Positions 236 through 12,882 of a stretch of DNA of 64,000 nucleotides are shown here, piece by piece (the first letter of the stretch is position 1; each line of letters opens with the position of its first letter). Source of the DNA: an uncultured Bacteroidales bacterium (GTDB lineage Bacteria > Bacteroidota > Bacteroidia > Bacteroidales > VadinHA17); contig CAVTDE010000003.1 in assembly GCA_963733455.1 (NCBI GenBank), forward strand, positions 449,154 through 513,153. Direction: 5' to 3'. A program made the position numbers and the translations under genes. Below the pieces are notes generated by a model. The model saw only the letters and a list, made by a program, of their open reading frames with translations. It was not told where the DNA came from and made no database searches.

Positions 236-2239
236 TCAATCATTTTTTTCAATTCTGATATTGTCAAAATAAACTACATTCCATCCTGTTCCGATTGCTG
301 GAATGCCTTCTGAATTTGTACTATCAATGATTGATATCAGCTGACTGTTGTTTAATGTTACTCCTATTTGATTACCTTTAGTTTCCATTAAAATATGATT
401 CCATGCATTCTTTCGGACGTTTTTAACAGTTCCAGTTGCAAGGACTTTCTTTATGGTTTGGGTTTTTGGTACCTGAACTATTTCTTGTACTGTCAGGAAC
501 CATTTTCCGTCGTGATAAATTTTATATTCGTAACCCGGGTAATCGGTTGACCAGGTATTTAATTGGTTTGTTCTGATACTAAATGCAGCAAATCCGGTAT
601 CGGGGATCATATAATCACAGGCAAAACGATAGTCTTTCCATTTTATATCACCCAGAATACTCATAGGGTAACTAAATCCCATCCAATTAATACCGGGTCT
701 CGTGATACATTGTTTCAGGCAGTTGTTTTTCCCTCCGGTGATGTTTACTATTTCAAAGCATCCATGCAAATCCGACAGGTATTTTGGCTGGTTGCCTAAC
801 TGATATGAATTGAAATCGTCCTGATAGGGTATGGGGAAAGACTTATTGGAGGGGACTGGGGTATTAGCTAAACCCTTTATCTGACCCTTTGTAGTAGTGA
901 TGGAGTACACAGATCCTGGTTGAACTTTAAATGTAAACTGATCATTAACAGGCGCAATAATTTTCTCATTGACAAATAGAGCATCTTTGTTGGATCTCCA
1001 TACATTTAATACATTTGTGCGGAAAGAACCTGTCAAAAAAAATGTAAATTCAATCTCTTCCCGGGAGTCTACGGTTTCTAAAATTATAGAATAATCATCT
1101 GTAACGGAATCTTGAATAGTATTAATCGACCAGTGGTTAACTGAATCCTGATCACATCCGCTTTCAATAAAATGCCATCCCGGCTTTGTAAACTGGTTGG
1201 TATGAGCAATAATCCATAAAGGAGGTTGTACTTCGTAATAACCCGTCCATGGACAGTTGGCTTTCATCATACCCATTCCCGGGCACAGCAGGAAATCGAA
1301 ACAGGAAGTAATAAGACTCCAGGAAATGATCTTGGTAATTTTCCCGGCAGGATAAGCTCTCATATTGATTTTTGCATGTAATGTTGCAGCCGGCCAATCA
1401 CCTCCATAAGCATGAGCTTCACCGTTCCATATTGGTTTATTCAATAGACGAGCGTTAGCGGGAGTAATATTTTTTTCCGCTTCGGGGGTATGGACATTGA
1501 TTACTGCTATTGCATTACGTAATTCAGGATCAGATATCATATCATCAGCTATAGCCCATTTTTCTTTCGGTATCCATAGATCGGCTGCGTCAATTTTCAC
1601 AGCTTGTAATCCATTTTGGTCAAGTGTTTTTCTCAAAACCTTTATATATTCTTTCTCATACATTCTTTCATTAGCTATTCCTACGTAATCAATAGTAAGG
1701 TTCTGATAAGTCTTTGCCCCTTTCACAAATGCTGCAACATAATCAGCATTATCCTGCGAAAATATTTGTCCATTTCCGATCCAGCCGGGTGCACCCCATT
1801 CCAATGCTTCTAATATAATATCAGGATTCCTTTTTTTTGCTTCTTCCATCAGCCACCACTCATATCCCCGTTTATAATATTCCGGTTTGGGATTCAACAT
1901 CTCTTCACGGATACGGGCATGCGAAGGCTCTGATCCATCGGTGGACATTACATCGCCTCCTATCTCCACTTTCAGGTGGTGCAAATTTGCACCAAAATTG
2001 GGTTTGAAAAGATAATCGAGGATATCACTACGATAAGGTTCCGGGTAATCGTACAACAAACGGGAGGAAGCTCCTGCACTCAACGCCCCGATGCCTTCAA
2101 ATATCCTTCCTTTTGAATTATCGGAGAGATAAAATGCATGTTTCATCTGAGAAAAGGATGTACCAGGACACAAAAGTAAAATGAGAATAATCGACATAAA
2201 ATTTATTCTTATTTTCATTTTAAAAGAAAGTTTCTTCAT
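236..2239 (-). CDS. Glycoside hydrolase family 59 (galactosylceramidase-like beta-galactosidase), secreted
   Basis: 667-aa ORF with an N-terminal signal peptide. Long colinear similarity to galactocerebrosidase, e.g. FEGIGALSAGASSRLLYDYPEPYRSDILDYLFKPNFGANLHHLKVEIGGD...TDGSEPSH and YEWWLMEEAKKRNP. Confidence 0.9.
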   Translation of the reverse strand: MKKLSFKMKIRINFMSIILILLLCPGTSFSQMKHAFYLSDNSKGRIFEGIGALSAGASSRLLYDYPEPYRSDILDYLFKPNFGANLHHLKVEIGGDVMSTDGSEPSHARIREEMLNPKPEYYKRGYEWWLMEEAKKRNPDIILEALEWGAPGWIGNGQIFSQDNADYVAAFVKGAKTYQNLTIDYVGIANERMYEKEYIKVLRKTLDQNGLQAVKIDAADLWIPKEKWAIADDMISDPELRNAIAVINVHTPEAEKNITPANARLLNKPIWNGEAHAYGGDWPAATLHAKINMRAYPAGKITKIISWSLITSCFDFLLCPGMGMMKANCPWTGYYEVQPPLWIIAHTNQFTKPGWHFIESGCDQDSVNHWSINTIQDSVTDDYSIILETVDSREEIEFTFFLTGSFRTNVLNVWRSNKDALFVNEKIIAPVNDQFTFKVQPGSVYSITTTKGQIKGLANTPVPSNKSFPIPYQDDFNSYQLGNQPKYLSDLHGCFEIVNITGGKNNCLKQCITRPGINWMGFSYPMSILGDIKWKDYRFACDYMIPDTGFAAFSIRTNQLNTWSTDYPGYEYKIYHDGKWFLTVQEIVQVPKTQTIKKVLATGTVKNVRKNAWNHILMETKGNQIGVTLNNSQLISIIDSTNSEGIPAIGTGWNVVYFDNIRIEKND

Positions 2240-3103: not shown

Positions 3104-3970
3104 CTAAAATCCTTTAAACCTTTTTCTATATTCTGAAGGTGTCAAACCAGTAATTTTTTTAAATTGCTTGTTGAAATGGCTAATGTTATTAAAGCCACTA
3201 TCATAACACACCTCCAGAATAGACAAGTCATGGTCCATCAATAATTTGCAGGCAAAATCTGTTTTTATCTTATTTAAATATTCAAATACGGTAATTCCCA
3301 TATTCATCTTAAAAAACCGGCATAAAGAACCCTCCGCCATATTGACAAGCTCAGCTAATCTCTTTAAATCTACCTCATCGTGGTAATGGTTCATCAGATA
3401 TTCATGAATAGTAGCTATACGCTTATTACCAGTTGTGAATCGTTTTTTAAGGTACTCTTTGCTTGCCAATTGAATGTTAGTTTCACTTTTACCAATGATA
3501 TCCATCAACCTATAGAAATGATGCATTCTATCAAAATGTTTCAAATACGGCAACTGGAGCATAATTTCACTCACTTCATTAAGTGTATCTCCAACAATCT
3601 GGATTCCTCTTTCTGACAATTCCAAAGCCCGTTTGACATTTCTGAATTCAGGAAGGTTTAATAATTGAAAAGGTAAAACATGCAAAGTGAACTGAAGGAA
3701 AACCATCTCAAGTGTTCGCTTGGTTGGCGTTCGAGTTTCTTTATCGACTATCCATACATGAGGAAGATTAGGACCAATAAATGCCAAGTCACCTGGTTGA
3801 AATTCTTCAATAGAATCGGCAACAATTCGTTTCCCAGAGCCTTCAGTTATGAAGCTTATTTCAAAATTATTGTGGTAATGCCAGGTGCTTTTTTCCAGAT
3901 TGTCCTGGAAAATCCCAATAAAAAAAGATTCATCTTCTTTTTCAATTATTCTCTCAAACAAAGCTGCCAT
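3104..3970 (-). CDS. AraC-family transcriptional regulator (N-terminal cupin sensor + C-terminal HTH)
   Basis: The C-terminus carries the typical AraC HTH (...ISHFNKQFKKITGLTPSEYRK). The N-terminal cupin-like segment reads WHYHNNFEISFITEGSGKRIV...GDLAFIGPNLPHVW. The track ORF extends to a TTG at 4000, but the ATG at 3970 (MAALFERII) is preferred. Confidence 0.9.
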   Translation of the reverse strand: MAALFERIIEKEDESFFIGIFQDNLEKSTWHYHNNFEISFITEGSGKRIVADSIEEFQPGDLAFIGPNLPHVWIVDKETRTPTKRTLEMVFLQFTLHVLPFQLLNLPEFRNVKRALELSERGIQIVGDTLNEVSEIMLQLPYLKHFDRMHHFYRLMDIIGKSETNIQLASKEYLKKRFTTGNKRIATIHEYLMNHYHDEVDLKRLAELVNMAEGSLCRFFKMNMGITVFEYLNKIKTDFACKLLMDHDLSILEVCYDSGFNNISHFNKQFKKITGLTPSEYRKRFKGF

Positions 3971-4060
3971 TGTGGTACTAATTGTACCTAAACCAGCCAA
4001 TATGTTAATATAGCATCAAAAGTAGTAAAAATTGATGTAGTTTTAAATTAAGGGAGAAGG

Positions 4061-4068
4061 TATTTTTG
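4061..4068 (+). promoter_or_regulatory. Candidate Bacteroidota -7 box (TATTTTTG) for the corrinoid operon
   Basis: Matches the TAnnTTTG consensus of Bacteroides primary-sigma promoters, 41 bp upstream of the 4109 ATG. No clean -33 TTTG was seen. Confidence 0.3.
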
Positions 4069-4108
4069 TTACTGCTTCGAATTTGTATCAAATTAAATTA
4101 ATGAAATT

Positions 4109-4780
4109 ATGGAAGAATTGCTCCTCAAATTGCTAAACGCTGTGGAATTGGGTAAAGTGGATAAAAAATCCCCCTATCCCCCGCAGTTAAAAGATCAGGA
4201 TGGCGCCTTTGAACTCGCAGGGAAATTGCTCGAAAAAGGATGTAAACCTGAAGTTATCCTTGAAAAAGCTTTGATCCCAGCGATGGCTAATGTTGGTAAT
4301 AAATTCAGCTGCAAGGAGATATATGTCCCTCAAATGCTTATGTCTGCGAAGGCGATGAGCGGAGCAATGTTTCATCTTAAACCTTTCTTTCAGTCAGGTG
4401 AAACTAAAAGAAAAGGAACATTTATTATTGGAACCGTGTCTGGAGACCTACATGATATTGGTAAAAACCTTGTATCAATGATGATTGAAGGCGGTGGATG
4501 GGAAGTGATCGACCTCGGTGTGGATGTAGGAACAGAAAAATTTCTTAGAGCGATGGATGAACACCCTGATGCAGTTGTTGGCTTGTCAGCATTGCTTACT
4601 ACGACAATGGAAAACATGAAAAAAGCAGTTTATGTTATAAAAGAAAAGTACCCTAATTCAAAAATTCTGGTTGGAGGAGCACCTGTTACTCAGGAATATT
4701 GTGAAAAGATAGGTGCCAATTTTTATTCACCTGATCCCCAAGGAGCTGTCAATTATTTAAAGGCCCTTATAAGTGTATAA
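4109..4780 (+). CDS. Corrinoid (B12)-binding protein of a methyltransferase system (MtaC/MtvC-like)
   Basis: 223 aa with a helical cap domain plus a Rossmann B12-binding domain. It carries the DxHxxG signature (GDLHDIGKNLV) and the downstream ...GLSALLTTT... motif. Confidence 0.88.
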   Translation: MEELLLKLLNAVELGKVDKKSPYPPQLKDQDGAFELAGKLLEKGCKPEVILEKALIPAMANVGNKFSCKEIYVPQMLMSAKAMSGAMFHLKPFFQSGETKRKGTFIIGTVSGDLHDIGKNLVSMMIEGGGWEVIDLGVDVGTEKFLRAMDEHPDAVVGLSALLTTTMENMKKAVYVIKEKYPNSKILVGGAPVTQEYCEKIGANFYSPDPQGAVNYLKALISV

Positions 4781-4790
4781 TTTATTGTAA

Positions 4791-5630
4791 ATGAAAACAG
4801 TACTGTTCGGAAAGACCAAAGAGGTTATAATTGATACCAATGGGCCGGTCATAATTATTGGAGAAAGTATAAATCCTACGAGACGAAAAAAGCTAGTATC
4901 CACTTTACAGGCAGGAGATTTTGAATATGTGCTCGAGTTAGCCGGGATGCAGATCAAAGCCATGGCTGATGTTCTCGATGTCAATGTTGGATTCCCCGGC
5001 GTTGATGATGTAAAATTGTTGCCGAGAACTGTAATAGCAATTCAGAATAAATTCGATATTCCGCTCTGTCTTGATTCTCCCAATCCAAGGGCAATTGAAG
5101 CAGCGCTAAAGGTGGCAAAGGGGAAATGCCTTATAAATTCCGTGAATGGAGAAGAACGTTCTTTAAATGCTATTCTGCCTGTTGCAAAAGAATTTGGGGC
5201 TGCCATAATCGGGTTGGTTATGGATGATAATGGGATCACTCATGATCCTGAAAAAAGACTGGCAATAGCTGAAAAGATACTTGAGAGAGCAATTAAAATG
5301 GGGATCAAAGAGGATGATGTTGTCATCGACCCTCTCGCTATGGCTGTCAGTGCTGATCCAAATGCATGCTTGGTTACCATGGAAACAATTAGACTTATTC
5401 ATCAGAAACTGGGACTTAATATTACTATGGGAGCAAGCAATATATCTTTCGGATTACCAAACAGAGAAATCTTGAATGCTGCTTTTATGACATTATCAAT
5501 ACTGAATGGGCTTACCTGTCCGATTGCAAACCCTGAGAAAATTACGGCTACTGTCCTCGCAACCGATTTAATTCTGGGAAGAGATGCATATGCCATGCGG
5601 TTTGTTGAAAATTTTCAAGGGAGTATGTAA
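4791..5630 (+). CDS. Pterin-binding methyltransferase (MtrH / MeTr-AcsE-like; methylcorrinoid:tetrahydrofolate methyltransferase)
   Basis: 279 aa with a DHPS-like TIM-barrel pattern (IIIGESINPT..., VLDVNVG, LCLDSPNP, INSVNGE, VIDPLAM, GASNISFGLP). It starts 10 bp after the corrinoid protein gene. Confidence 0.8.
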   Translation: MKTVLFGKTKEVIIDTNGPVIIIGESINPTRRKKLVSTLQAGDFEYVLELAGMQIKAMADVLDVNVGFPGVDDVKLLPRTVIAIQNKFDIPLCLDSPNPRAIEAALKVAKGKCLINSVNGEERSLNAILPVAKEFGAAIIGLVMDDNGITHDPEKRLAIAEKILERAIKMGIKEDDVVIDPLAMAVSADPNACLVTMETIRLIHQKLGLNITMGASNISFGLPNREILNAAFMTLSILNGLTCPIANPEKITATVLATDLILGRDAYAMRFVENFQGSM

Positions 5631-5666
5631 TTCAATGAGTTCAACAAGTATATTAATCAGAAAATA

Positions 5667-7109
5667 ATGTCCTTTACAAAACCTTCCCGCAGATGGCAGC
5701 CTGCATTCTATCCATTTAAAAAAGAAAAATTTAGCAGACGTTTTCTCGGGAAAACTGAACTTTTAATAAAAGGCCCATTGTTTGGATGTCGGATGTGTGG
5801 TAATTGCCTGCTGCAGGAGACAGCATTCATCTGCCCTATGGAATGTCCGAAGGGGATGAGAAACGGACCCTGTGGAGGTACAACTCCATCAAAGAATTGC
5901 TATATCGACGAAACTCGAAAATGTATATGGTATTGTATTTATAAACGGGCAGAACAATTAGGTAGAGAAGAAATGCTTCTTGAAGTGCTGCCCCCTCTCG
6001 ATTGGGAAAAGGTTGGAACAGAAACATGGGGCGAAGTTGTACGTCAGATACGAAAAACCGGCACGGCAAAATTTATTAAAGATATTCTTTCAAAAGATAA
6101 AGAAAAAAAATCAGAGACATGGGATAGCGTATTCAAAACAATCCGTCAGCCCTATTGGTGGCATGGTGATTCTGATTACCATGCCCCTGGTTACCAGGAA
6201 CCCGTTTCTGAACTTGAGAGACGTTTCCGCAGCGGAGAATTTGTTGTTGCTACCGAGGTGACCCCCTCATTAAATGCAAATTCCGATAAATTATCTCAAA
6301 ATATCGAACTGGTAAAACCTTATGTTACAGCTATAAATTTTACTGATTCTTCCTCAGCCAGGCCAAGAATGTCGAGCATAGCATGTTGTAAAGTAGCTCT
6401 CGACCTTTATGTTGAACCTGTCCTGCAAATAGCAGCCCGCGACACAACAAGAACCCGGCTTCAGGCTGATATAATTGGAGTCAACGAATTGGGTATTTTC
6501 AATGTACTGTGCATCACCGGCGATAGCGCAAAAGTAGGCCCTTCACCGATGAGCAGTATGAACATTCTCGATATCGATTCGGTTCAGATGTTGTGGTTAT
6601 TGAGACGAATGCGAGATGAAGGGTTATATCTCGATGGCAGGCAGATGAAAAATCCGCCTAAAATATTCCTTGGAGCTGCAACATCCCCGTTCGCTTCGGA
6701 GCCCAGATTACAGGCTATAAAGGACCAAAAAAAAGTAAATGCCGGTGCACAGTTTTTCCAAACCAATCTTGTCTTTGATTCTGACAGGCTTGATACATGG
6801 CTGGAACAGCTCGATAAACGGAATGTACTCGACAAAGTTTACATCCTTATAGGTATAGCCCCTCTGAAAAGCTTTAAAGTGGCTCAATACCTTCACACGC
6901 AAGTTCCAGGAGTCAATCTGCCGGATGATGTATTGAGCAGAATGGAAAAAGCAGGTGAAGGTGCTCCGGAGGAAGGAACTCAGATTGCTTTGGAACTTAT
7001 TGAGTCAATCAAGAAAAAGAAAGGAGTAAATGGTATTCACATAATGTCCTTAGGATGGGAATCTGTGGTACGGAGAATTGTTACTGATTCGGGGATACCA
7101 TGTTATTGA
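5667..7109 (+). CDS. Methylenetetrahydrofolate reductase with a fused N-terminal MetV-type Cys-rich domain (MetV-MetF fusion)
   Basis: The N-terminus CRMCGNCLLQETAFICPMECPKGMRNGPCGG...C...C matches the acetogen MetV / MTHFR_C zinc-ribbon-like domain. Residues from about 185 onward match MTHFR (GEFVVATEVTPS..., INFTDSS, ITGD, QFFQTNLVFD). Confidence 0.8.
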   Translation: MSFTKPSRRWQPAFYPFKKEKFSRRFLGKTELLIKGPLFGCRMCGNCLLQETAFICPMECPKGMRNGPCGGTTPSKNCYIDETRKCIWYCIYKRAEQLGREEMLLEVLPPLDWEKVGTETWGEVVRQIRKTGTAKFIKDILSKDKEKKSETWDSVFKTIRQPYWWHGDSDYHAPGYQEPVSELERRFRSGEFVVATEVTPSLNANSDKLSQNIELVKPYVTAINFTDSSSARPRMSSIACCKVALDLYVEPVLQIAARDTTRTRLQADIIGVNELGIFNVLCITGDSAKVGPSPMSSMNILDIDSVQMLWLLRRMRDEGLYLDGRQMKNPPKIFLGAATSPFASEPRLQAIKDQKKVNAGAQFFQTNLVFDSDRLDTWLEQLDKRNVLDKVYILIGIAPLKSFKVAQYLHTQVPGVNLPDDVLSRMEKAGEGAPEEGTQIALELIESIKKKKGVNGIHIMSLGWESVVRRIVTDSGIPCY

Positions 7110-7146
7110 ATTATGTCTTTAAAATTATATATGTAATTAATATTAA

Positions 7147-8256
7147 ATGATGAAGAAAAATATGACAGAATGGATAAATTCCATTATTAGTTCAGAGGAG
7201 CGCAAGGCCATGCCGTTAATGACTTATCCCGGGTTGTATATTCTTAGGAAAACTGTGATTGAAATGGCCACTGATGGGCAAGCTCAGTACGAATGCCTTA
7301 AAGCATTGTCAGACAGGTATCCGACAGGAGCATTTGCAACATTAGCAATGGCTCTCTACGTTGAAGCAGACGCATTTGGAAGCGAGATAAAATATAGTCA
7401 AAATGAAATTCCCACTGTTTCAAATAGATTGGTAAAATCTTTAAGCTCAGTTACAAGTATGAGAATACCTGAAGTTGGCGAAGGCAAAACCTTTGAACAT
7501 CTCAAAGCTGCAAAGCTGGCTGCGGAAAATATCACAGATCGACCGGTCTTTGGTGGAATTATTGGTCCTTATTCACTTGCAGGGCGGCTATATGATATTA
7601 CCGAGCTGATGGCCGCGATTCTTAATGAACCCGAAGGATCTCACAAATTATTAAATGTCTGCACTGACTTTCTTAAGGACTATGCCATGGCCTACAAAGA
7701 TGCAGGCTGTAATGGCATTATAATAGCCGAACCTGCTGCCGGTTTATTGGCTGAGAATGAATGCAATGAATTTTCATCGATGTATATTAAACAAATTGTT
7801 GATCATGTTCAGGACAAGAATTTTATTGTTATTCTGCATAATTGCGGAGATACGGTGAAGCTGGTAAATTCAATGCTTTCGACAGGAAGTGCAGGCTTTC
7901 ACTTTGGGAATGTGGTAGATATGGTCGACATTTTACCGCAAGTCCCTTCAGACCGTTTGGTTTTTGGCAATCTCGACCCGGCAGGGGTTATAAAAGATGG
8001 TTCGCCTGATATCATCAGAGCAGAAACACTTGAATTATTAAATAAAACAGCTTCTTTCAAAAACTTCGTTTTGTCTTCAGGTTGTGATGTGCCCCCGGGT
8101 ACAAAACTCGAAAACATTGATGCCTTCTTTAAGGTATTAAATGAGTATAATGAGCGTCAATTAAAATCATTAGAAGCTAACTTTAGTAACTATTTTGAAA
8201 GTGAATTATTAGAGAGAGAAGTACTCTGTTGGGATAACAGTCTTTCCGTAGCTTAA
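7147..8256 (+). CDS. URO-D superfamily (MtaA/MtbA/MtsA-like) zinc methyltransferase, probable substrate- or acceptor-specific methyltransferase of the corrinoid system
   Basis: 369 aa with a uroporphyrinogen-decarboxylase-fold pattern. The MT2-type Zn ligand motif HxCxnC is present (ILHNCGD ... LSSGCDVPP). Confidence 0.78.
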   Translation: MMKKNMTEWINSIISSEERKAMPLMTYPGLYILRKTVIEMATDGQAQYECLKALSDRYPTGAFATLAMALYVEADAFGSEIKYSQNEIPTVSNRLVKSLSSVTSMRIPEVGEGKTFEHLKAAKLAAENITDRPVFGGIIGPYSLAGRLYDITELMAAILNEPEGSHKLLNVCTDFLKDYAMAYKDAGCNGIIIAEPAAGLLAENECNEFSSMYIKQIVDHVQDKNFIVILHNCGDTVKLVNSMLSTGSAGFHFGNVVDMVDILPQVPSDRLVFGNLDPAGVIKDGSPDIIRAETLELLNKTASFKNFVLSSGCDVPPGTKLENIDAFFKVLNEYNERQLKSLEANFSNYFESELLEREVLCWDNSLSVA

Positions 8257-8308
8257 AAAATAACTTCAAAAACTATTATAATATCAAATTGAAACCAAAA
8301 CCGTTGTA

Positions 8309-9979
8309 ATGAATTCAGATATCGAAATTGCACAATCAGCTGAAATCAGGCCGATCGTTGAAATTGCTGAGAAACTTGGGATTAATCCTGAGGAGCTTGA
8401 ATTCTACGGCAAGTATAAAGCAAAAATTCCTCTATCCCTGATTGATGAAGAACGCGTTAAAAAAGGGAAACTAATACTTGTCACTGCGATTACACCTACA
8501 CCTGCCGGTGAAGGGAAAACGACAACCTCAATAGGCCTTGCACAGGCTCTAAACCGGATTGGCAAAAAAACTACTGTTGTTCTTCGAGAACCTTCTCTTG
8601 GTCCGGTTTTCGGAACTAAAGGTGGAGCTGCAGGTGGAGGATATTCACAGGTAATTCCAATGGAAGATATTAACCTTCATTTTACAGGAGATATGTCGGC
8701 TGTTGAAAAAGCTAATAACCTACTGGCAGCACTCATTGATAATAATATCCAATTGAGTGAGGGTAATCTCGGCATCGATCCTCGGACTATTAATTGGAAA
8801 AGGGTCATGGATATGAACGAAAGATCACTTCGCGATATCATTATTGGCCTTGGTGGCACTAGCCAGGGAGTGCCACGTGAATCAGGTTTTAATATCACTG
8901 CGGCATCTGAAGTGATGGCGATACTTTGTATCTCCAAAGATCTCATGGACCTAAAGAAAAGACTTGGAAACATCTTTGTAGGTTATACTTATGGGGGGAA
9001 ACCTGTTTTTGCCAGGGATCTTAAGGCACATGGAGCGATGGCTGCGCTTATGAAAGAGGCTATAAAGCCTAACCTGGTACAGACTCTTGAAGGCACTCCG
9101 GCTATTATTCATGGAGGTCCATTCGCGAACATAGCTCAGGGAACAAATTCTATCATTGCAACAAAAATGGGACTTACTTTCAGTGATTATGTTGTAACTG
9201 AAGCTGGTTTTGCAAGTGAACTTGGAGCTGAGAAATTCTTAAATATTAAGGCTCGGTTTGGTAATCTACATACAGACGCCGTTGTGATAGTCGCTACAAT
9301 ACGAGCTCTTAAATATCATGGAGGTCTGAAACTATCAGAAATACATAAAGAAGACCTTGCAGCGCTTAAAAATGGATTTGAAAACCTTGACAAACATATC
9401 GAGAATATGAGATATTATGGCTTCAATCCAGTTATTGCAATAAACAAATTTGATACGGATACTGAAGCAGAAATTGATCTGCTTAAGAAACATTGTGTTT
9501 CGCATAACGTTCTGGTTGATCTAAATGAATCATGGTCCAGGGGGGGAGACGGAGCTATTAATCTGGCAAATATGATGGTCAAAGAAGTGAAAAACTCTCC
9601 CGATATGTTAAAAACTCTTTATGATCTTGAATGGTCATTTGAAAAAAAAATTGAGGCCATTGCCACCAAAATGTATGGTGCTGATCATATCGAATATACT
9701 GTACTCGCCAAACAGCAGCTTAAAAAAATAGAAGAACTTGGTCTAGGTACCCTGGCAGTTTGCATTGCTAAAACGCAGAAATCTCTTTCAGATAACGAGC
9801 ATAAAAAAGGTTGTCCCAAGGGATTTACATTTAAAATCAGGGAAGTTGAACTTTCTTCTGGAGCGGGGTTTATAGTACCGATTGCCGGTACTATTATGCG
9901 AATGCCAGGTCTGCCATCGAACCCTTGTGCTGAAAAGATTGATGTCGATGAAAATGGTAAAATATCAGGACTATTCTAA
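8309..9979 (+). CDS. fhs: Formate--tetrahydrofolate ligase
   Basis: 556 aa with the hallmark motifs TPTPAGEGKTTTSIGL, GGAAGGGYSQV, EAGFA.ELGAEKF and MPGLP. Confidence 0.97.
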   Translation: MNSDIEIAQSAEIRPIVEIAEKLGINPEELEFYGKYKAKIPLSLIDEERVKKGKLILVTAITPTPAGEGKTTTSIGLAQALNRIGKKTTVVLREPSLGPVFGTKGGAAGGGYSQVIPMEDINLHFTGDMSAVEKANNLLAALIDNNIQLSEGNLGIDPRTINWKRVMDMNERSLRDIIIGLGGTSQGVPRESGFNITAASEVMAILCISKDLMDLKKRLGNIFVGYTYGGKPVFARDLKAHGAMAALMKEAIKPNLVQTLEGTPAIIHGGPFANIAQGTNSIIATKMGLTFSDYVVTEAGFASELGAEKFLNIKARFGNLHTDAVVIVATIRALKYHGGLKLSEIHKEDLAALKNGFENLDKHIENMRYYGFNPVIAINKFDTDTEAEIDLLKKHCVSHNVLVDLNESWSRGGDGAINLANMMVKEVKNSPDMLKTLYDLEWSFEKKIEAIATKMYGADHIEYTVLAKQQLKKIEELGLGTLAVCIAKTQKSLSDNEHKKGCPKGFTFKIREVELSSGAGFIVPIAGTIMRMPGLPSNPCAEKIDVDENGKISGLF

Positions 9980-10152: not shown

Positions 10153-11370
10153 ATGATAAGGAAAAGAATATTGCCATTTACTTTGATTCTGATTTGCTTA
10201 CTTATATCAATATATCTTATTAGTAGATATTTAATCCCCTCCTCTTTGAATTCTAACGACTCTGTCACATCAACGGTAGATTATGGTCCGGTTTTTACTT
10301 CAGTACCTGCCTCAGGGATAGTTAATCCTGAAAACGAAGTATTGTTACTTAGTCCATCATCAAGCCTGGTATCATCTCTTATCCAGTCTCCGGGAAATCG
10401 TGTATCCAAGGGGAGTGTAATTCTCACCCTTGATCCAAAATCGTTGATGCAGGAAATCGATAACCTAAAAAGCCAGTTGGGTGTAATGGAAAATGACATG
10501 CAGAAAAATAGACTTAATTCCAGGAGTATTCGAGTTGACCTTGATTATAATGCGGAAGTAAAAAAACTTAAAATTACCTCCCTTAAAACTCAAATCCAGG
10601 ATCAGGAACAACTTCTCAAAGTGGGAGGGATATCTCCTTCCCTTCATGAGCAAACCAAGGAAGAATTGGTTTTGGCTGAAAAAGACCTGAAAATGACACT
10701 TGAGAAGAATTCAATCCGTCTGAAACTACTTGAGGCAGATGAAAAGGGACTTCAGCTTCAGATCGATATGAGAAACAAAGAGTTGGAATTAAAACAGGAT
10801 TTGTTGCAGAGATTGACAGTGAGAGCAGCTTCCGATGGTATAATCCTCGGGATATTTACCAGTGTAGGGGAGAAGGTGGAAAAGGATAAATTGCTTGTCA
10901 AAATGTCTGATCTGTCAACTTTCAAAGTCAAAGCCACTGTTGATAACTCCTACATTGACAACATAAAGATAGGTGGTGAAGTTTATGCAATAATAGATAG
11001 TACAAGTTTGAAAGGTAAAATTGGAAGTGTGACTCCTGTTATGAAAGACAAGAAAATAGAATTTGATATATTTCTCGACCACAGCTATAGTCAGAGACTG
11101 ATTCCCAATATGGAGGTCGATCTGGAGATTGTAATTCAACGGAAGGACAGCGTATTACGGGTTAAACATGGTCCGGCATTTAATAAGAACAAGTACCAGG
11201 ATCTTTTTGTAATAGGAACTGATAAGGCTGTTAGGGAAACAGTGACCACCGGACTCATCGGGACGGAATATGTTGAAATAGTTGCCGGATTGGCTCCGGG
11301 TGACCGAGTTATCATATCAGATATTCCACGATCGAGGCATAACCGGGAAATTGTATTGGAAGATTTTTAA
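10153..11370 (+). CDS. HlyD-family periplasmic adaptor (membrane fusion protein)
   Basis: 405 aa with one N-terminal TM segment, a long coiled-coil region (LKSQL...LELKQDLLQRL) and barrel-sandwich/beta-barrel C-terminal segments typical of MFPs. Confidence 0.8.
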   Translation: MIRKRILPFTLILICLLISIYLISRYLIPSSLNSNDSVTSTVDYGPVFTSVPASGIVNPENEVLLLSPSSSLVSSLIQSPGNRVSKGSVILTLDPKSLMQEIDNLKSQLGVMENDMQKNRLNSRSIRVDLDYNAEVKKLKITSLKTQIQDQEQLLKVGGISPSLHEQTKEELVLAEKDLKMTLEKNSIRLKLLEADEKGLQLQIDMRNKELELKQDLLQRLTVRAASDGIILGIFTSVGEKVEKDKLLVKMSDLSTFKVKATVDNSYIDNIKIGGEVYAIIDSTSLKGKIGSVTPVMKDKKIEFDIFLDHSYSQRLIPNMEVDLEIVIQRKDSVLRVKHGPAFNKNKYQDLFVIGTDKAVRETVTTGLIGTEYVEIVAGLAPGDRVIISDIPRSRHNREIVLEDF

Positions 11371-11383
11371 ATTGTGGGTTGTT

Positions 11384-12882
11384 ATGAAAACACTGGTAAG
11401 GCATTTTGTTCTTCTTCTCTTTTTAATATGCCGGGTTGATTCTTTATCAGGTTTTTCAGACGACAGCATTGTTGTATCACTCAATCTAAGGAATGTCATT
11501 GATCTCGCCATCCGACAGTCAGCCTCAGTTAAATATGCTCAAAATACAAATGTGAACTACTTCTGGCGGTGGAAAAACTTTAGAACCAGCTTCAGGCCCC
11601 AGCTTGACGCTCAAAGGTGACCTGCCAAATTATATTCATACAACTACACCGGTCGTACAGCCTGACGGCAGTGTTGAATTCAGAAAAATATCCCAGGTAA
11701 AAGCGTCCTCTGAGATTTCCCTGAGTCAGTCCATTCCCAATACAGGGACTTATATTTATGCGGCAACCAATCTTTACCGGATTCAGGATTTTATCAAAAG
11801 TTCGGTGGAATATTCCGGAAGTCCTTTCCAGATTGGTTTATATCAGCCTGTTTTTGCATACAATTATATGAAATGGCAAAAGAAGACCGAACCTCTTGAT
11901 CTATGAAGAATCTCAAAAACAATTTGTTGAATCGATCGAGCGGATTGCCCTGCAAGCTACCAGTTACTTCTTTAGGTATTTGCAGATCCAGACGAATTAT
12001 AACCTGGCAGAAAACAATCTGAAAAACAGTGATAATAATCTTAAAATTGCGGAAATCAGGAAACAGCTCGGTAAGATATCTGATAATGATTATTCACGAA
12101 TCCAGCTTTCTGTTTTCAATGCACAGAAATCTCTTAACAAAGCCAGGATTGACCTGAAAAATGCCGATTTTGAATTGAAATCCTTTATTAATCTTGACCA
12201 GAATCTGAAAATAGAGCTTGTCATTCCTCTTGATATGATTTTCTTTTCTATTGACCCAGAAAAGGCTCTTAAGGAGGCAAAGGCGAACCGGAAGGAAACA
12301 CCTTATTTTAGGAGAAGACTTATTGAAGCTGACAGAGACTTAGTAAGAGCCAAAAGAAATTCAGGACTCAGTGCTACGTTAATTGGCAGTTATGGCATTT
12401 CAAACAGCGCCGGAACGTTCGGTGGCATTTATGATCAACCTGAAAAACAAAGGGCGATCAACCTTACCATGAGTATACCCATACTCGATTGGGGTCGGTC
12501 CGCCTCAGCAGTAAAAATAGCTGAATCACAACGAGAGCTTGTTGTTTATGATGTAGAAAAAGGCAATAAAGATTTTGAGCGGGGAGTTATTGTAGAAGTG
12601 GAACAGTTTGGTCTGCTTCGTGATCAAATTAACACAGCACGGGAAGCCGATAAAGTGGCTGAAAACGGCTATCTGATAGCGCTGAAGAAGTTTCAAAGTG
12701 GTGAAATTATTATTACAGACCTGAATATTTCTCTTTCTGAACGGGAAAGCGCCAAAAGAGACTACATCACCGCCATTGAGAATTACTGGGAATCCTATTA
12801 CCAGTTAAGAATTCTGACCTTATATGATTTCGAACTAGATCAGAAAATCATGTATGAAAACCTGATGCTGAAGTCAAAATAG
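11384..12882 (+). pseudogene. TolC-family outer membrane efflux protein, split over three frames by two +1 frameshifts
   Basis: Signal peptide MKTLVRHFVLLLFLI at ATG 11384. TolC-like repeats continue across ORFs 11282-11620, 11604-11906 and 11896-12882. The first shift is best explained by the C4 run at 11597-11600 (gives ...FRPSLTLKGDLPNY). The second lies within 11872-11903. Confidence 0.8.

What the first reader, a model, noticed from the sequence alone, without database searches (positions are those of the whole stretch)
3104..9979. AraC-linked corrinoid methyltransferase system wired to MetVF and Fhs in a Bacteroidota background
Five same-strand genes with 10-52 bp gaps encode:
- a B12-binding corrinoid protein (DLHDIG = DxHxxG);
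- a pterin-binding MtrH/MeTr-like methyltransferase;
- a MetV-type Cys-rich domain fused to MetF;
- a URO-D/MtaA-family Zn methyltransferase (HNCG...SGCD = HxCxnC);
- formate-THF ligase.

The operon is divergent from a cupin-AraC regulator. MT I / corrinoid protein / MT II is the design of anaerobic O-demethylases and methylotrophic acetogens (Moorella Mtv, Acetobacterium and Desulfitobacterium demethylases). Here it is joined directly to both ends of the THF methyl branch. This implies capture of a methyl group from an unknown donor and oxidation to formate with ATP gain, or the reverse flow. I do not know of this as a standard trait of saccharolytic Bacteroidota. No reductive activase (RACo/RamA type) and no FolD lie in the window, and the substrate cannot be read from the sequence. 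Methoxylated aromatics, methanol and methylated thiols are all compatible with a Zn-dependent URO-D-fold enzyme.
Basis: partly seen in the sequence, partly recalled or inferred. Interest (0 to 1): 0.6.

Follow-up and report, generated by a model that had tools for sequence, protein, structure and literature searches.

The report
B12 methyl relay wired to folate oxidation
An uncultured anaerobic Bacteroidales bacterium has a switchable operon joining a vitamin-B12 methyl-transfer relay to the folate enzymes that turn a methyl group into formate plus ATP; it probably harvests methyl groups from methylated sugars, a reaction not yet described for anaerobes.

Summary
A cupin-AraC gene lies divergent from five same-strand genes with gaps of 10-52 bp. 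These encode a corrinoid protein (DLHDIG), a MeTr-like methyl-THF:corrinoid methyltransferase, a fused MetV-MetF reductase, an MtaA-like zinc-site URO-D enzyme and Fhs.

The same cassette recurs in at least three other species of the genus, so the linkage is real. It is an accessory derivative of a genus-wide operon: corrinoid protein, MeTr, MetVF and a MetH-type activation-domain protein.

- The URO-D enzyme is not HemE, but it is also not in the aryl O-demethylase clade.
- The "missing activase" is a MetH-type activation protein encoded elsewhere in this genome, and inside the cassette in a sister species.
- The cassette abuts a GH59/GH2 polysaccharide locus with two more URO-D paralogues. 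Relatives of all three URO-D enzymes sit in glycan loci across Bacteroidota.

Best reading (confidence 0.5): methyl groups, most likely from O-methyl sugars, pass to B12, then THF, then formate with ATP gain. Whether the URO-D enzyme loads or unloads the corrinoid is unresolved. This scan noted related URO-D/B12 modules in glycan loci before on other DNA. The direct tie to MetVF and Fhs is what this window adds. I found no paper describing it.

The parts
236..2239 (-). GH59 glycoside hydrolase. It is the last gene of the polysaccharide utilisation locus that continues upstream of the window: SusC, SusD, GH59, URO-D p335, URO-D p417, MFS sugar transporter, GH59, GH2, IS66 transposase.
   Evidence: Pfam Glyco_hydro_59, 345 bits. 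Upstream locus L013 annotated.
3104..4000 (-). Cupin-AraC transcription regulator, divergent from the operon. The true start is probably the ATG near 3970.
   Evidence: HTH_18 81.7 bits, HTH_AraC, Cupin_2 and AraC_binding. It is 73% identical to the AraC of the C6 paralogous cassette and 77% to the AraC beside CP and URO-D in a Prolixibacteraceae MAG, L089.
4001..4108 (.). Divergent 108-bp control region between AraC and the corrinoid protein gene.
   Evidence: Sequence read. No riboswitch found. Sigma-70-type scans are no better than shuffles.
4109..4780 (+). Corrinoid (B12) carrier protein with a cap domain and DxHxxG (DLHDIG).
   Evidence: B12-binding_2 and B12-binding. TIGR02370 at 158.6 bits. 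Best solved relatives are 1y80 (Moorella) and 7xcn, with 4jgi third.
4791..5630 (+). MeTr-like methyl-THF:corrinoid methyltransferase (pterin-binding TIM barrel).
   Evidence: NF005719 at 269.6 bits, above its cut-off of 259. Best solved relative is 4o0q, the D. hafniense O-demethylase MT II (150.6 bits), ahead of AcsE 2yci/2e7f at about 123 bits.
5667..7109 (+). Fused MetV (Cys-rich DUF5981) and MetF methylene-THF reductase.
   Evidence: PF12225 at 87 bits (residues 35-114) and PF02219 at 92.5 bits (residues 183-475). No full-length match in 400 other Bacteroidota genomes sampled. Found in 34 of 36 sampled species of the own genus.
7147..8256 (+). URO-D-fold, MtaA-like methyltransferase with an H231-x-C233 ... 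C313 zinc-type site ('UROD-W' clade).
   Evidence: URO-D 182.7 bits. NF004889 at 138.8 bits (cut-off 244) and hemE at 67 bits (cut-off 303). AF2 model pLDDT 89.5; Foldseek top hit is MtaA 4ay7 with TM 0.80/0.87. The clade has SH-aLRT 99 and all 35 members keep LHNCG ... S[ST]GCD except one with C to Y.
8309..9979 (+). Formate-tetrahydrofolate ligase (Fhs).
   Evidence: PF01268 at 863 bits; NF010030 at 861 bits, above its cut-off of 652. The genome's only other fhs (84% identical) lies in the C6 paralogous cassette.

Best explanation
This is an AraC-switched accessory operon that moves a methyl group from a small methylated compound onto tetrahydrofolate through a B12 carrier and then oxidises it to formate with ATP gain.

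Proposed steps:
1. [quoted passage not shown] The substrate is most likely an O-methylated monosaccharide or uronic acid released by the adjoining GH59/GH2 glycan locus and imported by its MFS sugar transporter.
2. The MeTr-like enzyme passes the methyl group to THF.
3. The fused MetVF oxidises methyl-THF to methylene-THF.
4. FolD, encoded elsewhere, gives formyl-THF.
5. Fhs releases formate and makes ATP.
6. A formate dehydrogenase encoded elsewhere can finish the oxidation to CO2.

Oxidised Co(II) corrinoid is re-methylated by a MetH-type, SAM-binding activation-domain protein supplied in trans from the C4 paralogous operon.

Shown: the gene identities, motifs, fold, conservation of the cassette, genome inventory and glycan-locus context. 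Inferred: the direction of flux, the role of the URO-D enzyme as the loading enzyme, and the substrate.
For: The cassette is conserved in order in G495, G536 and G407 (with ActDom), and is decayed in G410.

A core operon CP-MeTr-MetVF-ActDom is found in 34 of 36 genus members, although the focal genome also has a classical MetH and MetF. So this hub is not the housekeeping methionine route.

In G414 the hub runs on, with 4-bp overlaps, into an MFS sugar transporter, GH2, an FGGY sugar kinase and an isomerase-like gene.

The window cassette lies next to SusC-SusD-GH59-p335-p417-MFS-GH59-GH2. The p335 paralogue is 77% identical to a B. intestinalis protein in a p335-CP-ActDom-UROD-W operon. The equivalent operon in an uncultured Bacteroides sp. 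(L064, p335 also 77%) lies beside GH115, the family of 4-O-methyl-glucuronidases, and GH127.

The same MFS type (69-77% identical) recurs beside the C6 cassette and in the G414 hub.

In Bacillota relatives (58% identical) the URO-D enzyme is the only non-pterin methyltransferase beside CP, MeTr and a PocR-AraC regulator. This is the O-demethylase layout.

The genome lacks ACS but has FolD, Fdh-alpha, PFL and CbiC. Growth by methyl oxidation to formate has been shown in an engineered acetogen (PMC10284823).
Against:
- The URO-D clade is nearly constant across glycan loci of very different type, while its partner URO-D changes with the locus.
- The five Bacteroidota genomes checked that carry such modules have no stand-alone MeTr. 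There the constant enzyme fits an unloading (MT2) role better, as does its MtaA-type thiol-activating Zn site.
- The cassette is separated from the glycan locus by an IS66 transposase and an 860-bp spacer. In other species it sits beside integrase or transposase genes rather than glycan genes.
- Both fhs copies of the genome are in these cassettes, so Fhs must also serve general C1 needs.
Confidence: 0.5

Rival explanations
1. The URO-D enzyme is the unloading enzyme (MT2, as MtaA is). The corrinoid protein is loaded by the substrate-specific URO-D paralogues of the neighbouring glycan locus (p335, p417). The methyl group then leaves either to THF through MeTr, for oxidation by MetVF and Fhs, or to a thiol acceptor through the URO-D enzyme.
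For: The UROD-W clade is constant while the partner URO-D differs with the glycan locus: p335-type with GH115/GH127/GH43, p417-type with GH26/GH130 mannan genes. No stand-alone MeTr is found in five genomes that carry partner-CP-ActDom-UROD-W or related modules, so one of the two URO-D enzymes must unload there. The Zn ligands are identical to those of MtaA, whereas the partners have H-x-C ... H. The closest fold and sequence relative is MtaA.
Against: In the window operon and in Bacillota loci no other loading enzyme is encoded beside CP and MeTr. 115 of 120 genus members run the THF hub without this enzyme. Adding a competing sink to an oxidative operon is odd. No acceptor thiol is known, and coenzyme M is not known in these bacteria.
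Confidence: 0.25
2. The operon runs in the reductive direction. Formate is activated by Fhs and reduced via FolD and MetVF to methyl-THF. The methyl group is handed by MeTr to the corrinoid protein and by the URO-D enzyme to a thiol such as homocysteine. This would be a MetH taken apart.
For: MeTr, a B12 domain, a Zn thiol methyltransferase and an activation domain are the four modules of MetH. The activation-domain protein is of MetH type. Prevotella relatives fuse a homocysteine S-methyltransferase domain to the B12 domain beside UROD-W and ActDom.
Against: The genome has a complete 1216-aa MetH with MetF. There is no SAM or B12 riboswitch at the operon, and AraC-type control suggests induction by a substrate. 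The hub and URO-D modules are embedded in sugar uptake and glycan loci. In Prevotella the homocysteine domain is present in addition to UROD-W, so UROD-W is unlikely to be the homocysteine enzyme.
Confidence: 0.12
3. It is an aryl methyl ether O-demethylase of the Moorella Mtv or Acetobacterium Odm/Vdm kind, acting on lignin-derived methoxylated aromatics.
For: It has the same three-component design. The MeTr is closest to the D. hafniense O-demethylase MT II, and the same organism's corrinoid protein 4jgi is the CP's third-best solved match.
Against: The URO-D clade scores only 25 bits to CdmB, the solved relative of MtvB/OdmB/VdmB/MtoB, against 79 bits to MtaA (PMC13222342). There is no RACo-type activase. 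No aromatic-compound genes lie nearby; the neighbours are glycan genes.
Confidence: 0.08
4. MetVF and Fhs are general C1 genes that merely lie beside a corrinoid methyltransferase set, with no dedicated pathway.
For: Fhs stands alone in four of five other genus members checked. The focal genome has no other fhs.
Against: The gene order with short gaps is conserved in three further species, and MetVF sits inside the corrinoid operon in 34 of 36 genus members. A separate classical MetF exists.
Confidence: 0.05

Closest known systems
Three- or four-component corrinoid O-demethylases of anaerobes (Moorella MtvABC, Acetobacterium OdmABCD/VdmABCD, Desulfitobacterium hafniense O-demethylase, archaeal MtoABCD)
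   Same: A UroD-superfamily methyltransferase, a DxHxxG corrinoid protein and a pterin-binding methyltransferase that delivers the methyl group to THF. The MeTr's best solved relative is the D. hafniense component (4o0q); that organism's corrinoid protein (4jgi) is the CP's third-best solved match.
   Different: The UroD-type enzyme is outside the aryl O-demethylase clade and is MtaA-like with a full Zn site. The activator is a MetH-type SAM-binding domain protein, not an ATP-dependent RACo/RamA enzyme. The host is a glycan-degrading Bacteroidales without acetyl-CoA synthase. MetVF and Fhs are in the same operon.
MtaA/MtbA/MtsA methylcobamide:thiol methyltransferases of Methanosarcina (PDB 4ay7)
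   Same: Closest fold (TM 0.80/0.87) and closest sequence relative. The H-x-C ... C zinc ligands are identical. It works with a separate corrinoid protein.
   Different: Only about 20% identity, and below the NCBIfam family cut-offs. It forms its own long-stemmed clade in bacteria that are not known to make coenzyme M. It is paired with a THF methyltransferase.
Cobalamin-dependent methionine synthase MetH, including the split Thermotoga form (TM0268/TM0269)
   Same: A pterin module, a B12 module and a separate activation-domain protein with RxxxGY.
   Different: There is no homocysteine-binding domain in the cassette. The modules are separate proteins. A complete MetH exists elsewhere in the genome.
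MetVF-type methylene-THF reductases and the methyl branch of acetogens (Acetobacterium woodii, Clostridium ljungdahlii)
   Same: A MetV Cys-rich domain with MetF, genetically linked to Fhs and to methyl-corrinoid transfer. Methyl oxidation to formate supports growth in an engineered A. woodii (PMC10284823).
   Different: MetV and MetF are fused in one 480-aa protein. The genome has no CODH/ACS. The host phylum is Bacteroidota.
Cytochrome P450 sugar demethylases of aerobic marine Bacteroidota (6-O-methyl-galactose in porphyran; PMC6292453)
   Same: They are encoded in glycan utilisation loci, and their proposed role is removal of methyl ethers from sugars.
   Different: The P450 route needs O2 and releases formaldehyde. 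The route proposed here is O2-independent methyl transfer to B12 and THF.

Membership tests
Aryl methyl ether O-demethylase systems (Mtv/Odm/Vdm/Mto) | MT I belongs to the MtvB/OdmB/VdmB/MtoB/CdmB branch of the UroD superfamily | tested here: not met
   A profile of the clade scores CdmB 9rui at 25.2 bits, against MtaA at 79.2 and HemE at 64.2. MtvB, OdmB and VdmB sequences themselves were not available for a tree.
Aryl methyl ether O-demethylase systems (Mtv/Odm/Vdm/Mto) | Corrinoid protein with a cap domain and DxHxxG | tested here: met
   B12-binding_2 and B12-binding; motif DLHDIG. 4jgi is among the best solved relatives.
Aryl methyl ether O-demethylase systems (Mtv/Odm/Vdm/Mto) | MT II is a pterin-binding methylcorrinoid:THF methyltransferase | tested here: met
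   NF005719 at 269.6 bits (cut-off 259). The top solved hit is 4o0q.
Aryl methyl ether O-demethylase systems (Mtv/Odm/Vdm/Mto) | ATP-dependent RACo/RamA-type activating enzyme | tested here: not met
   PF14574 has no match in the 98.8%-complete genome. A MetH-type activation-domain protein is present instead.
Aryl methyl ether O-demethylase systems (Mtv/Odm/Vdm/Mto) | Activity on methoxylated aromatics | not testable with these tools
   This needs an enzyme assay.
MtaA/MtbA/MtsA (MT2-A) methylcobamide:CoM methyltransferases | URO-D TIM-barrel fold with H-x-C ... C zinc ligands | tested here: met
   Foldseek 4ay7 TM 0.80/0.87. H231, C233 and C313 align with the MtaA ligands.
MtaA/MtbA/MtsA (MT2-A) methylcobamide:CoM methyltransferases | Scores above the curated family thresholds | tested here: not met
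   NF004889 at 138.8 bits (cut-off 244). TIGR01463 at 117.3 bits (cut-off 235.4). MtaA and MtbA equivalogs at 105-110 bits (cut-offs 400-600).
MtaA/MtbA/MtsA (MT2-A) methylcobamide:CoM methyltransferases | Coenzyme M as methyl acceptor | not tested
   Coenzyme M biosynthesis was not searched for, and the acceptor is unknown.
Uroporphyrinogen decarboxylase HemE | Scores as the hemE equivalog and lacks the Zn site | tested here: not met
   TIGR01464 at 67.2 bits (cut-off 303). HemE has LFTKG ... LGHG where this protein has LHNCG ... SGCD.
MetVF-type methylene-THF reductase | MetF (MTHFR) domain together with a MetV Cys-rich domain | tested here: met
   PF02219 at 92.5 bits and PF12225 at 87.4 bits in one 480-aa protein.
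Formate-tetrahydrofolate ligase | Full-length equivalog match | tested here: met
   NF010030 at 861.1 bits (cut-off 652), covering residues 1-556.
Cobalamin-dependent methionine synthase MetH (split form) | Homocysteine-binding S-methyltransferase module | tested here: not met
   No PF02574 domain in any cassette protein. A full MetH lies at C9:610838-614488.

The most novel reading that the evidence does not exclude
The constant MtaA-like enzyme is a reversible methyl-corrinoid:sulfide or thiol methyltransferase. In gut Bacteroidales, which lack a THF methyltransferase, it would dump sugar-derived methyl groups onto sulfide or a thiol, making methanethiol or a similar product. In this genus the same enzyme, joined to MeTr, MetVF and Fhs, would run the other way and let the cell grow on methylated thiols by oxidising them to formate with ATP gain.
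Probability: 0.1. Interest if true: 0.85.

Novelty: new variant of a known kind. Interest (0 to 1): 0.62.

Why it matters
How strict anaerobes deal with methyl ethers on sugars is not explained. Examples are 4-O-methyl-glucuronic acid, the 2-O-methyl sugars of rhamnogalacturonan II, and methylated galactans and mannans. Only an O2-dependent P450 route is described.

This window supplies the downstream half of a candidate anaerobic route, written in one operon: B12 carrier to THF to methylene-THF to formate plus ATP. That gives a direct prediction of products (formate, ATP, reducing equivalents) and a short list of proteins to assay.

It also shows two things about this lineage. Corrinoid methyltransferase systems there use a MetH-type activator in place of the RACo-type activase. 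And an acetogen-style MetVF reductase has been adopted by a non-acetogenic Bacteroidales genus.

Relatives of the enzymes occur in common human-gut Bacteroides, Phocaeicola and Prevotella, so the chemistry may bear on B12 demand and on C1 or thiol products in the gut.

Tried and rejected
- HemE identity for the URO-D gene: rejected.
- Membership of the aryl O-demethylase MT I clade: rejected on the CdmB score.
- Acetogenesis: rejected because no CdhC/ACS is present.
- A riboswitch or other RNA element at the operon: none found.
- Sigma-70 promoter and terminator scans: no better than shuffles, and not suited to Bacteroidota.
- Horizontal transfer signal from composition: only mild. GC3 is 0.30-0.37 against 0.419 +/- 0.054 for the genome.
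- Naming the organism: public names stop at 'Bacteroidales bacterium'. The closest named relative for the URO-D gene is a Lentimicrobium MAG at 65% identity.
- Literature: eight searches found no paper on a corrinoid-dependent sugar demethylase or on this operon.
- Tree limits: I could not put MtvB, OdmB, VdmB, MtoB or MtsA sequences into the tree because no tool supplied them. MtaA and HemE were taken as partial sequences from the PDB alignments.
- The N-terminal 'domain X' fused to B12 domains in Phocaeicola and Prevotella gave no significant match to URO-D paralogues by pairwise alignment.

Full report
**1. What is in the window**

The stated region holds six genes:
- a cupin-AraC regulator at 3104-4000 on the minus strand;
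- five plus-strand genes with gaps of 10, 36, 37 and 52 bp.

Profile searches identify the five as follows:
- A corrinoid protein at 4109-4780, with B12-binding_2 and B12-binding domains and the motif DLHDIG.
- A MeTr-like methyl-THF:corrinoid methyltransferase at 4791-5630. NF005719 scores 269.6 bits against a cut-off of 259.
- A single 480-aa fusion of a MetV-type Cys-rich domain (DUF5981) with an MTHFR domain, at 5667-7109.
- A URO-D-family protein at 7147-8256.
- Formate-THF ligase at 8309-9979, with NF010030 at 861 bits.

**2. The URO-D protein**

It is not HemE. The hemE model gives 67 bits against a cut-off of 303.

It is MtaA-like but lies below the MtaA-family cut-offs, at 138.8 bits against 244. 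Its H231-x-C233 and C313 align with the zinc ligands of MtaA 4ay7. An AlphaFold model (pLDDT 89.5) matches MtaA best, with TM 0.80/0.87.

A profile of its clade was scored against solved structures:

| Solved structure | Bits |
|---|---|
| MtaA | 79 |
| HemE | 64 |
| CdmB (9rui) | 25 |

CdmB is the solved enzyme that PMC13222342 places beside the aryl O-demethylases MtvB, OdmB, VdmB and MtoB in the UroD superfamily. So this protein is not a member of the known O-demethylase MT I branch.

In a tree of 69 URO-D-family proteins it falls in a clade of 35 that I call UROD-W, with SH-aLRT support of 99. All members carry LHNCG ... S[ST]GCD except one with a Cys-to-Tyr change. Within the clade, the window's protein groups as follows:
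- with same-genus proteins at 75-81% identity;
- with a Lentimicrobium MAG at 65%;
- in a subclade that also holds Bacillota, Spirochaetota and Thermodesulfobacteriota proteins. The gut Bacteroidales proteins form the sister subclade.

**3. The other components**

The MeTr's best solved relative is the MT II of the Desulfitobacterium hafniense O-demethylase (4o0q, 150.6 bits). It ranks ahead of AcsE at about 123 bits. The corrinoid protein matches 1y80 and 7xcn best, with 4jgi third.

No RACo-type activase exists in the 98.8%-complete genome. The genome does encode a 233-aa protein with the MetH activation domain. It carries the SAM-binding RxxxGY motif (R160-Y-S-P-G-Y165) and a conserved C-terminal CxxCxxxxC.

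**4. Paralogous sets and evolution of the cassette**

The genome has three related sets:
- the window cassette on contig C3;
- AraC | CP-MetVF-Fhs on C6;
- CP-MeTr-ActDom on C4.

It also has a classical 1216-aa MetH with a 332-aa MetF on C9. Paralogues are 73-84% identical.

Across the genus the ancestral unit is CP-MeTr-MetVF-ActDom. The fused MetVF is found in 34 of 36 sampled species, and all 14 full-length (18-kb) loci that had neighbours detected show this order. Two further full-length loci had no detected neighbours, and three fetched contigs were short. By contrast, none of 400 other Bacteroidota genomes sampled across the phylum has a full-length match to the fusion.

The window-type cassette, with the URO-D gene and Fhs added, is rare. 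The URO-D orthologue occurs in 5 of 120 other species of the genus. The cassettes found are:

| Species | Gene order |
|---|---|
| G495, G536 | same as the window |
| G407 | ActDom between MetVF and URO-D |
| G410 | decayed: AraC \| CP-URO-D (with a stop codon)-Fhs |

In those species the cassette lies beside an integrase or a transposase.

In four of five other genus members checked, fhs stands alone. The focal genome has no stand-alone copy.

The cassette is thus an accessory, probably mobile, derivative of a genus-wide corrinoid-THF hub.

**5. Context points to sugars**

Immediately upstream of the window lies this run of genes:
SusC-SusD-GH59-URO-D(p335)-URO-D(p417)-MFS sugar transporter-GH59-GH2-IS66.
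It is followed by the window's GH59, an 860-bp spacer and the AraC gene.

Evidence from other genomes:
- A scan of one genome per species found more than 570 relatives of the URO-D protein. The best 80 came from Bacteroides, Phocaeicola vulgatus ATCC 8482, Prevotella, Alistipes, Parabacteroides, Paludibacter, Prolixibacteraceae and several Bacillota.
- In Bacteroidota the usual module is [a second URO-D paralogue]-CP-ActDom-UROD-W, often next to SusC/SusD.
- The window genome's p335 is 77% identical to the first gene of such an operon in B. intestinalis. In an uncultured Bacteroides sp. (L064, p335 also 77% identical) the same operon is followed by GH127, an MFS transporter, GH115 and GH2/GH43. 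GH115 is the family of alpha-(4-O-methyl)glucuronidases.
- p417-type partners sit in a GH26/GH130 mannan locus.
- In P. vulgatus the module lies with GH31 and GH141.
- In genus member G414 the THF hub itself runs on, with 4-bp overlaps, into an MFS sugar transporter (69% identical to the one in the window's neighbouring locus), GH2, an FGGY kinase and an isomerase-like gene.
- The same transporter type (77% identical) lies beside the C6 cassette.

**6. Genome inventory**

| Feature | Result |
|---|---|
| Acetyl-CoA synthase (CdhC) | absent |
| folD | one copy |
| Fdh-alpha | bona fide, 942 bits (cut-off 666) |
| Pyruvate formate-lyase | present |
| Cobalamin riboswitch | one, elsewhere in the genome |
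| CbiC | present |

The cell can therefore carry a methyl group from THF to formate and CO2, but it cannot make acetyl-CoA from it. Growth by methyl oxidation to formate when another electron acceptor is available has been shown in an engineered Acetobacterium woodii (PMC10284823).

**7. How it most likely works**

I commit to the oxidative reading. A methylated small molecule gives its methyl group to Co(I) of the corrinoid protein. MeTr moves it to THF. MetVF, FolD and Fhs then convert it to formate with one ATP. The MetH-type activation protein repairs oxidised corrinoid.

The direction is inferred from four points:
- substrate-type (AraC) control;
- the sugar-uptake and glycan context of the hub;
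- the presence of a separate MetH/MetF pair for biosynthesis;
- the addition of Fhs.

**8. The unresolved point: the role of the URO-D enzyme**

For a loading role (MT1):
- It is the only non-pterin methyltransferase in the window operon.
- The same holds in Bacillota loci that carry CP, MeTr and a PocR-AraC regulator.

For an unloading role (MT2):
- It is constant while its partner URO-D changes with the glycan locus.
- It has the exact MtaA thiol-type zinc site, whereas the partners have H-x-C ... H.
- Five Bacteroidota genomes with such modules contain only FolP and MetH as pterin-binding proteins. They have no stand-alone MeTr, so their modules need an unloading enzyme of their own.

In Prevotella, a conserved unknown N-terminal domain, a homocysteine methyltransferase domain and a B12 domain are fused in one protein beside UROD-W and ActDom. 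This argues that UROD-W is not itself the homocysteine enzyme.

My confidences are 0.5 for loading within an oxidative operon, 0.25 for unloading, 0.12 for a reductive MetH-like direction, 0.08 for aryl ethers and 0.05 for mere adjacency.

**9. Novelty**

Corrinoid three-component methyltransferase systems, MetVF and Fhs are all known. The new features are these:
- an MtaA-like clade of unknown substrate;
- a MetH-type activator in place of RACo;
- a fused MetVF in a non-acetogenic Bacteroidales genus;
- the joining of all of these with Fhs in one AraC-controlled operon at the edge of a glycan locus.

Earlier notes of this scan on other genomes reached the idea of B12-dependent sugar demethylation independently. 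I had formed the same idea before reading them. Those notes are untested by experiment and are not counted as evidence.

Eight literature searches found no description of such a system.

Noticed in passing
G000:C4:235077-237406 (L010 7077-9407, minus strand): The focal genome's copy of the genus-wide CP-MeTr-MetVF-ActDom operon has cleanly lost MetVF. Only 82 bp separate MeTr and ActDom. Two MetVF copies survive in the Fhs-linked cassettes on C3 and C6.
   Followed up: partly
L010 7077-7778 (-) and 62 relatives: Stand-alone MetH activation-domain proteins in these corrinoid operons keep RxxxGY. They also keep an invariant C-terminal CxxCxxxxC motif that is not part of the Pfam activation-domain match. 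It may be a metal or Fe-S site for electron input.
   Followed up: partly
L028 11708-13510 (-) in Phocaeicola vulgatus; L051 12395-15325 (-) and L063 13092-16190 (-) in Prevotella: A roughly 360-aa N-terminal domain with no Pfam match is fused directly to a B12 domain in Phocaeicola. In Prevotella it is fused to a homocysteine S-methyltransferase domain plus a B12 domain, giving a pterin-less MetH-like protein. The domain is 88% identical between the two genera, which suggests recent transfer.
   Followed up: partly
G000:C5:701025-702033: An MtaA-like URO-D paralogue (LHICG ... SAGCE) is split into two overlapping reading frames of 237 and 160 aa. This is a possible frameshift or pseudogene. 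No convincing HemE was seen among the nine URO-D-family genes.
   Followed up: no
L139 6212-7318 (-) (genus member G495): The orthologous URO-D gene has Tyr in place of the second zinc ligand (HNYG), although the cassette is otherwise intact.
   Followed up: no
L011 1699-7157 (G000:C6, beside the CP-MetVF-Fhs cassette): A multihaem cytochrome c, a Crp/Fnr-type regulator and a fused ResB-CcsA cytochrome c assembly protein lie next to the paralogous cassette. This hints at a respiratory electron sink.
   Followed up: no
L012 6539-12113 (G000:C4:106.5-112.1 kb): A URO-D paralogue without the zinc ligands (HNDA ... GGG) sits between a gene for an 'Oxidoreduct_C' protein and the glycine cleavage P-protein gene. 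Relatives of this paralogue lie directly next to UROD-W in two other Bacteroidales MAGs (L058, L074).
   Followed up: no
G000:C9:662862-663448: The CbiC match is broken into two pieces, with an in-frame TGA, close to the contig end. This is either an assembly edge effect or a damaged cobamide synthesis gene.
   Followed up: no
window 10153-12882: An HlyD-type adaptor and a TolC-like gene follow Fhs without an inner-membrane pump gene.
   Followed up: no
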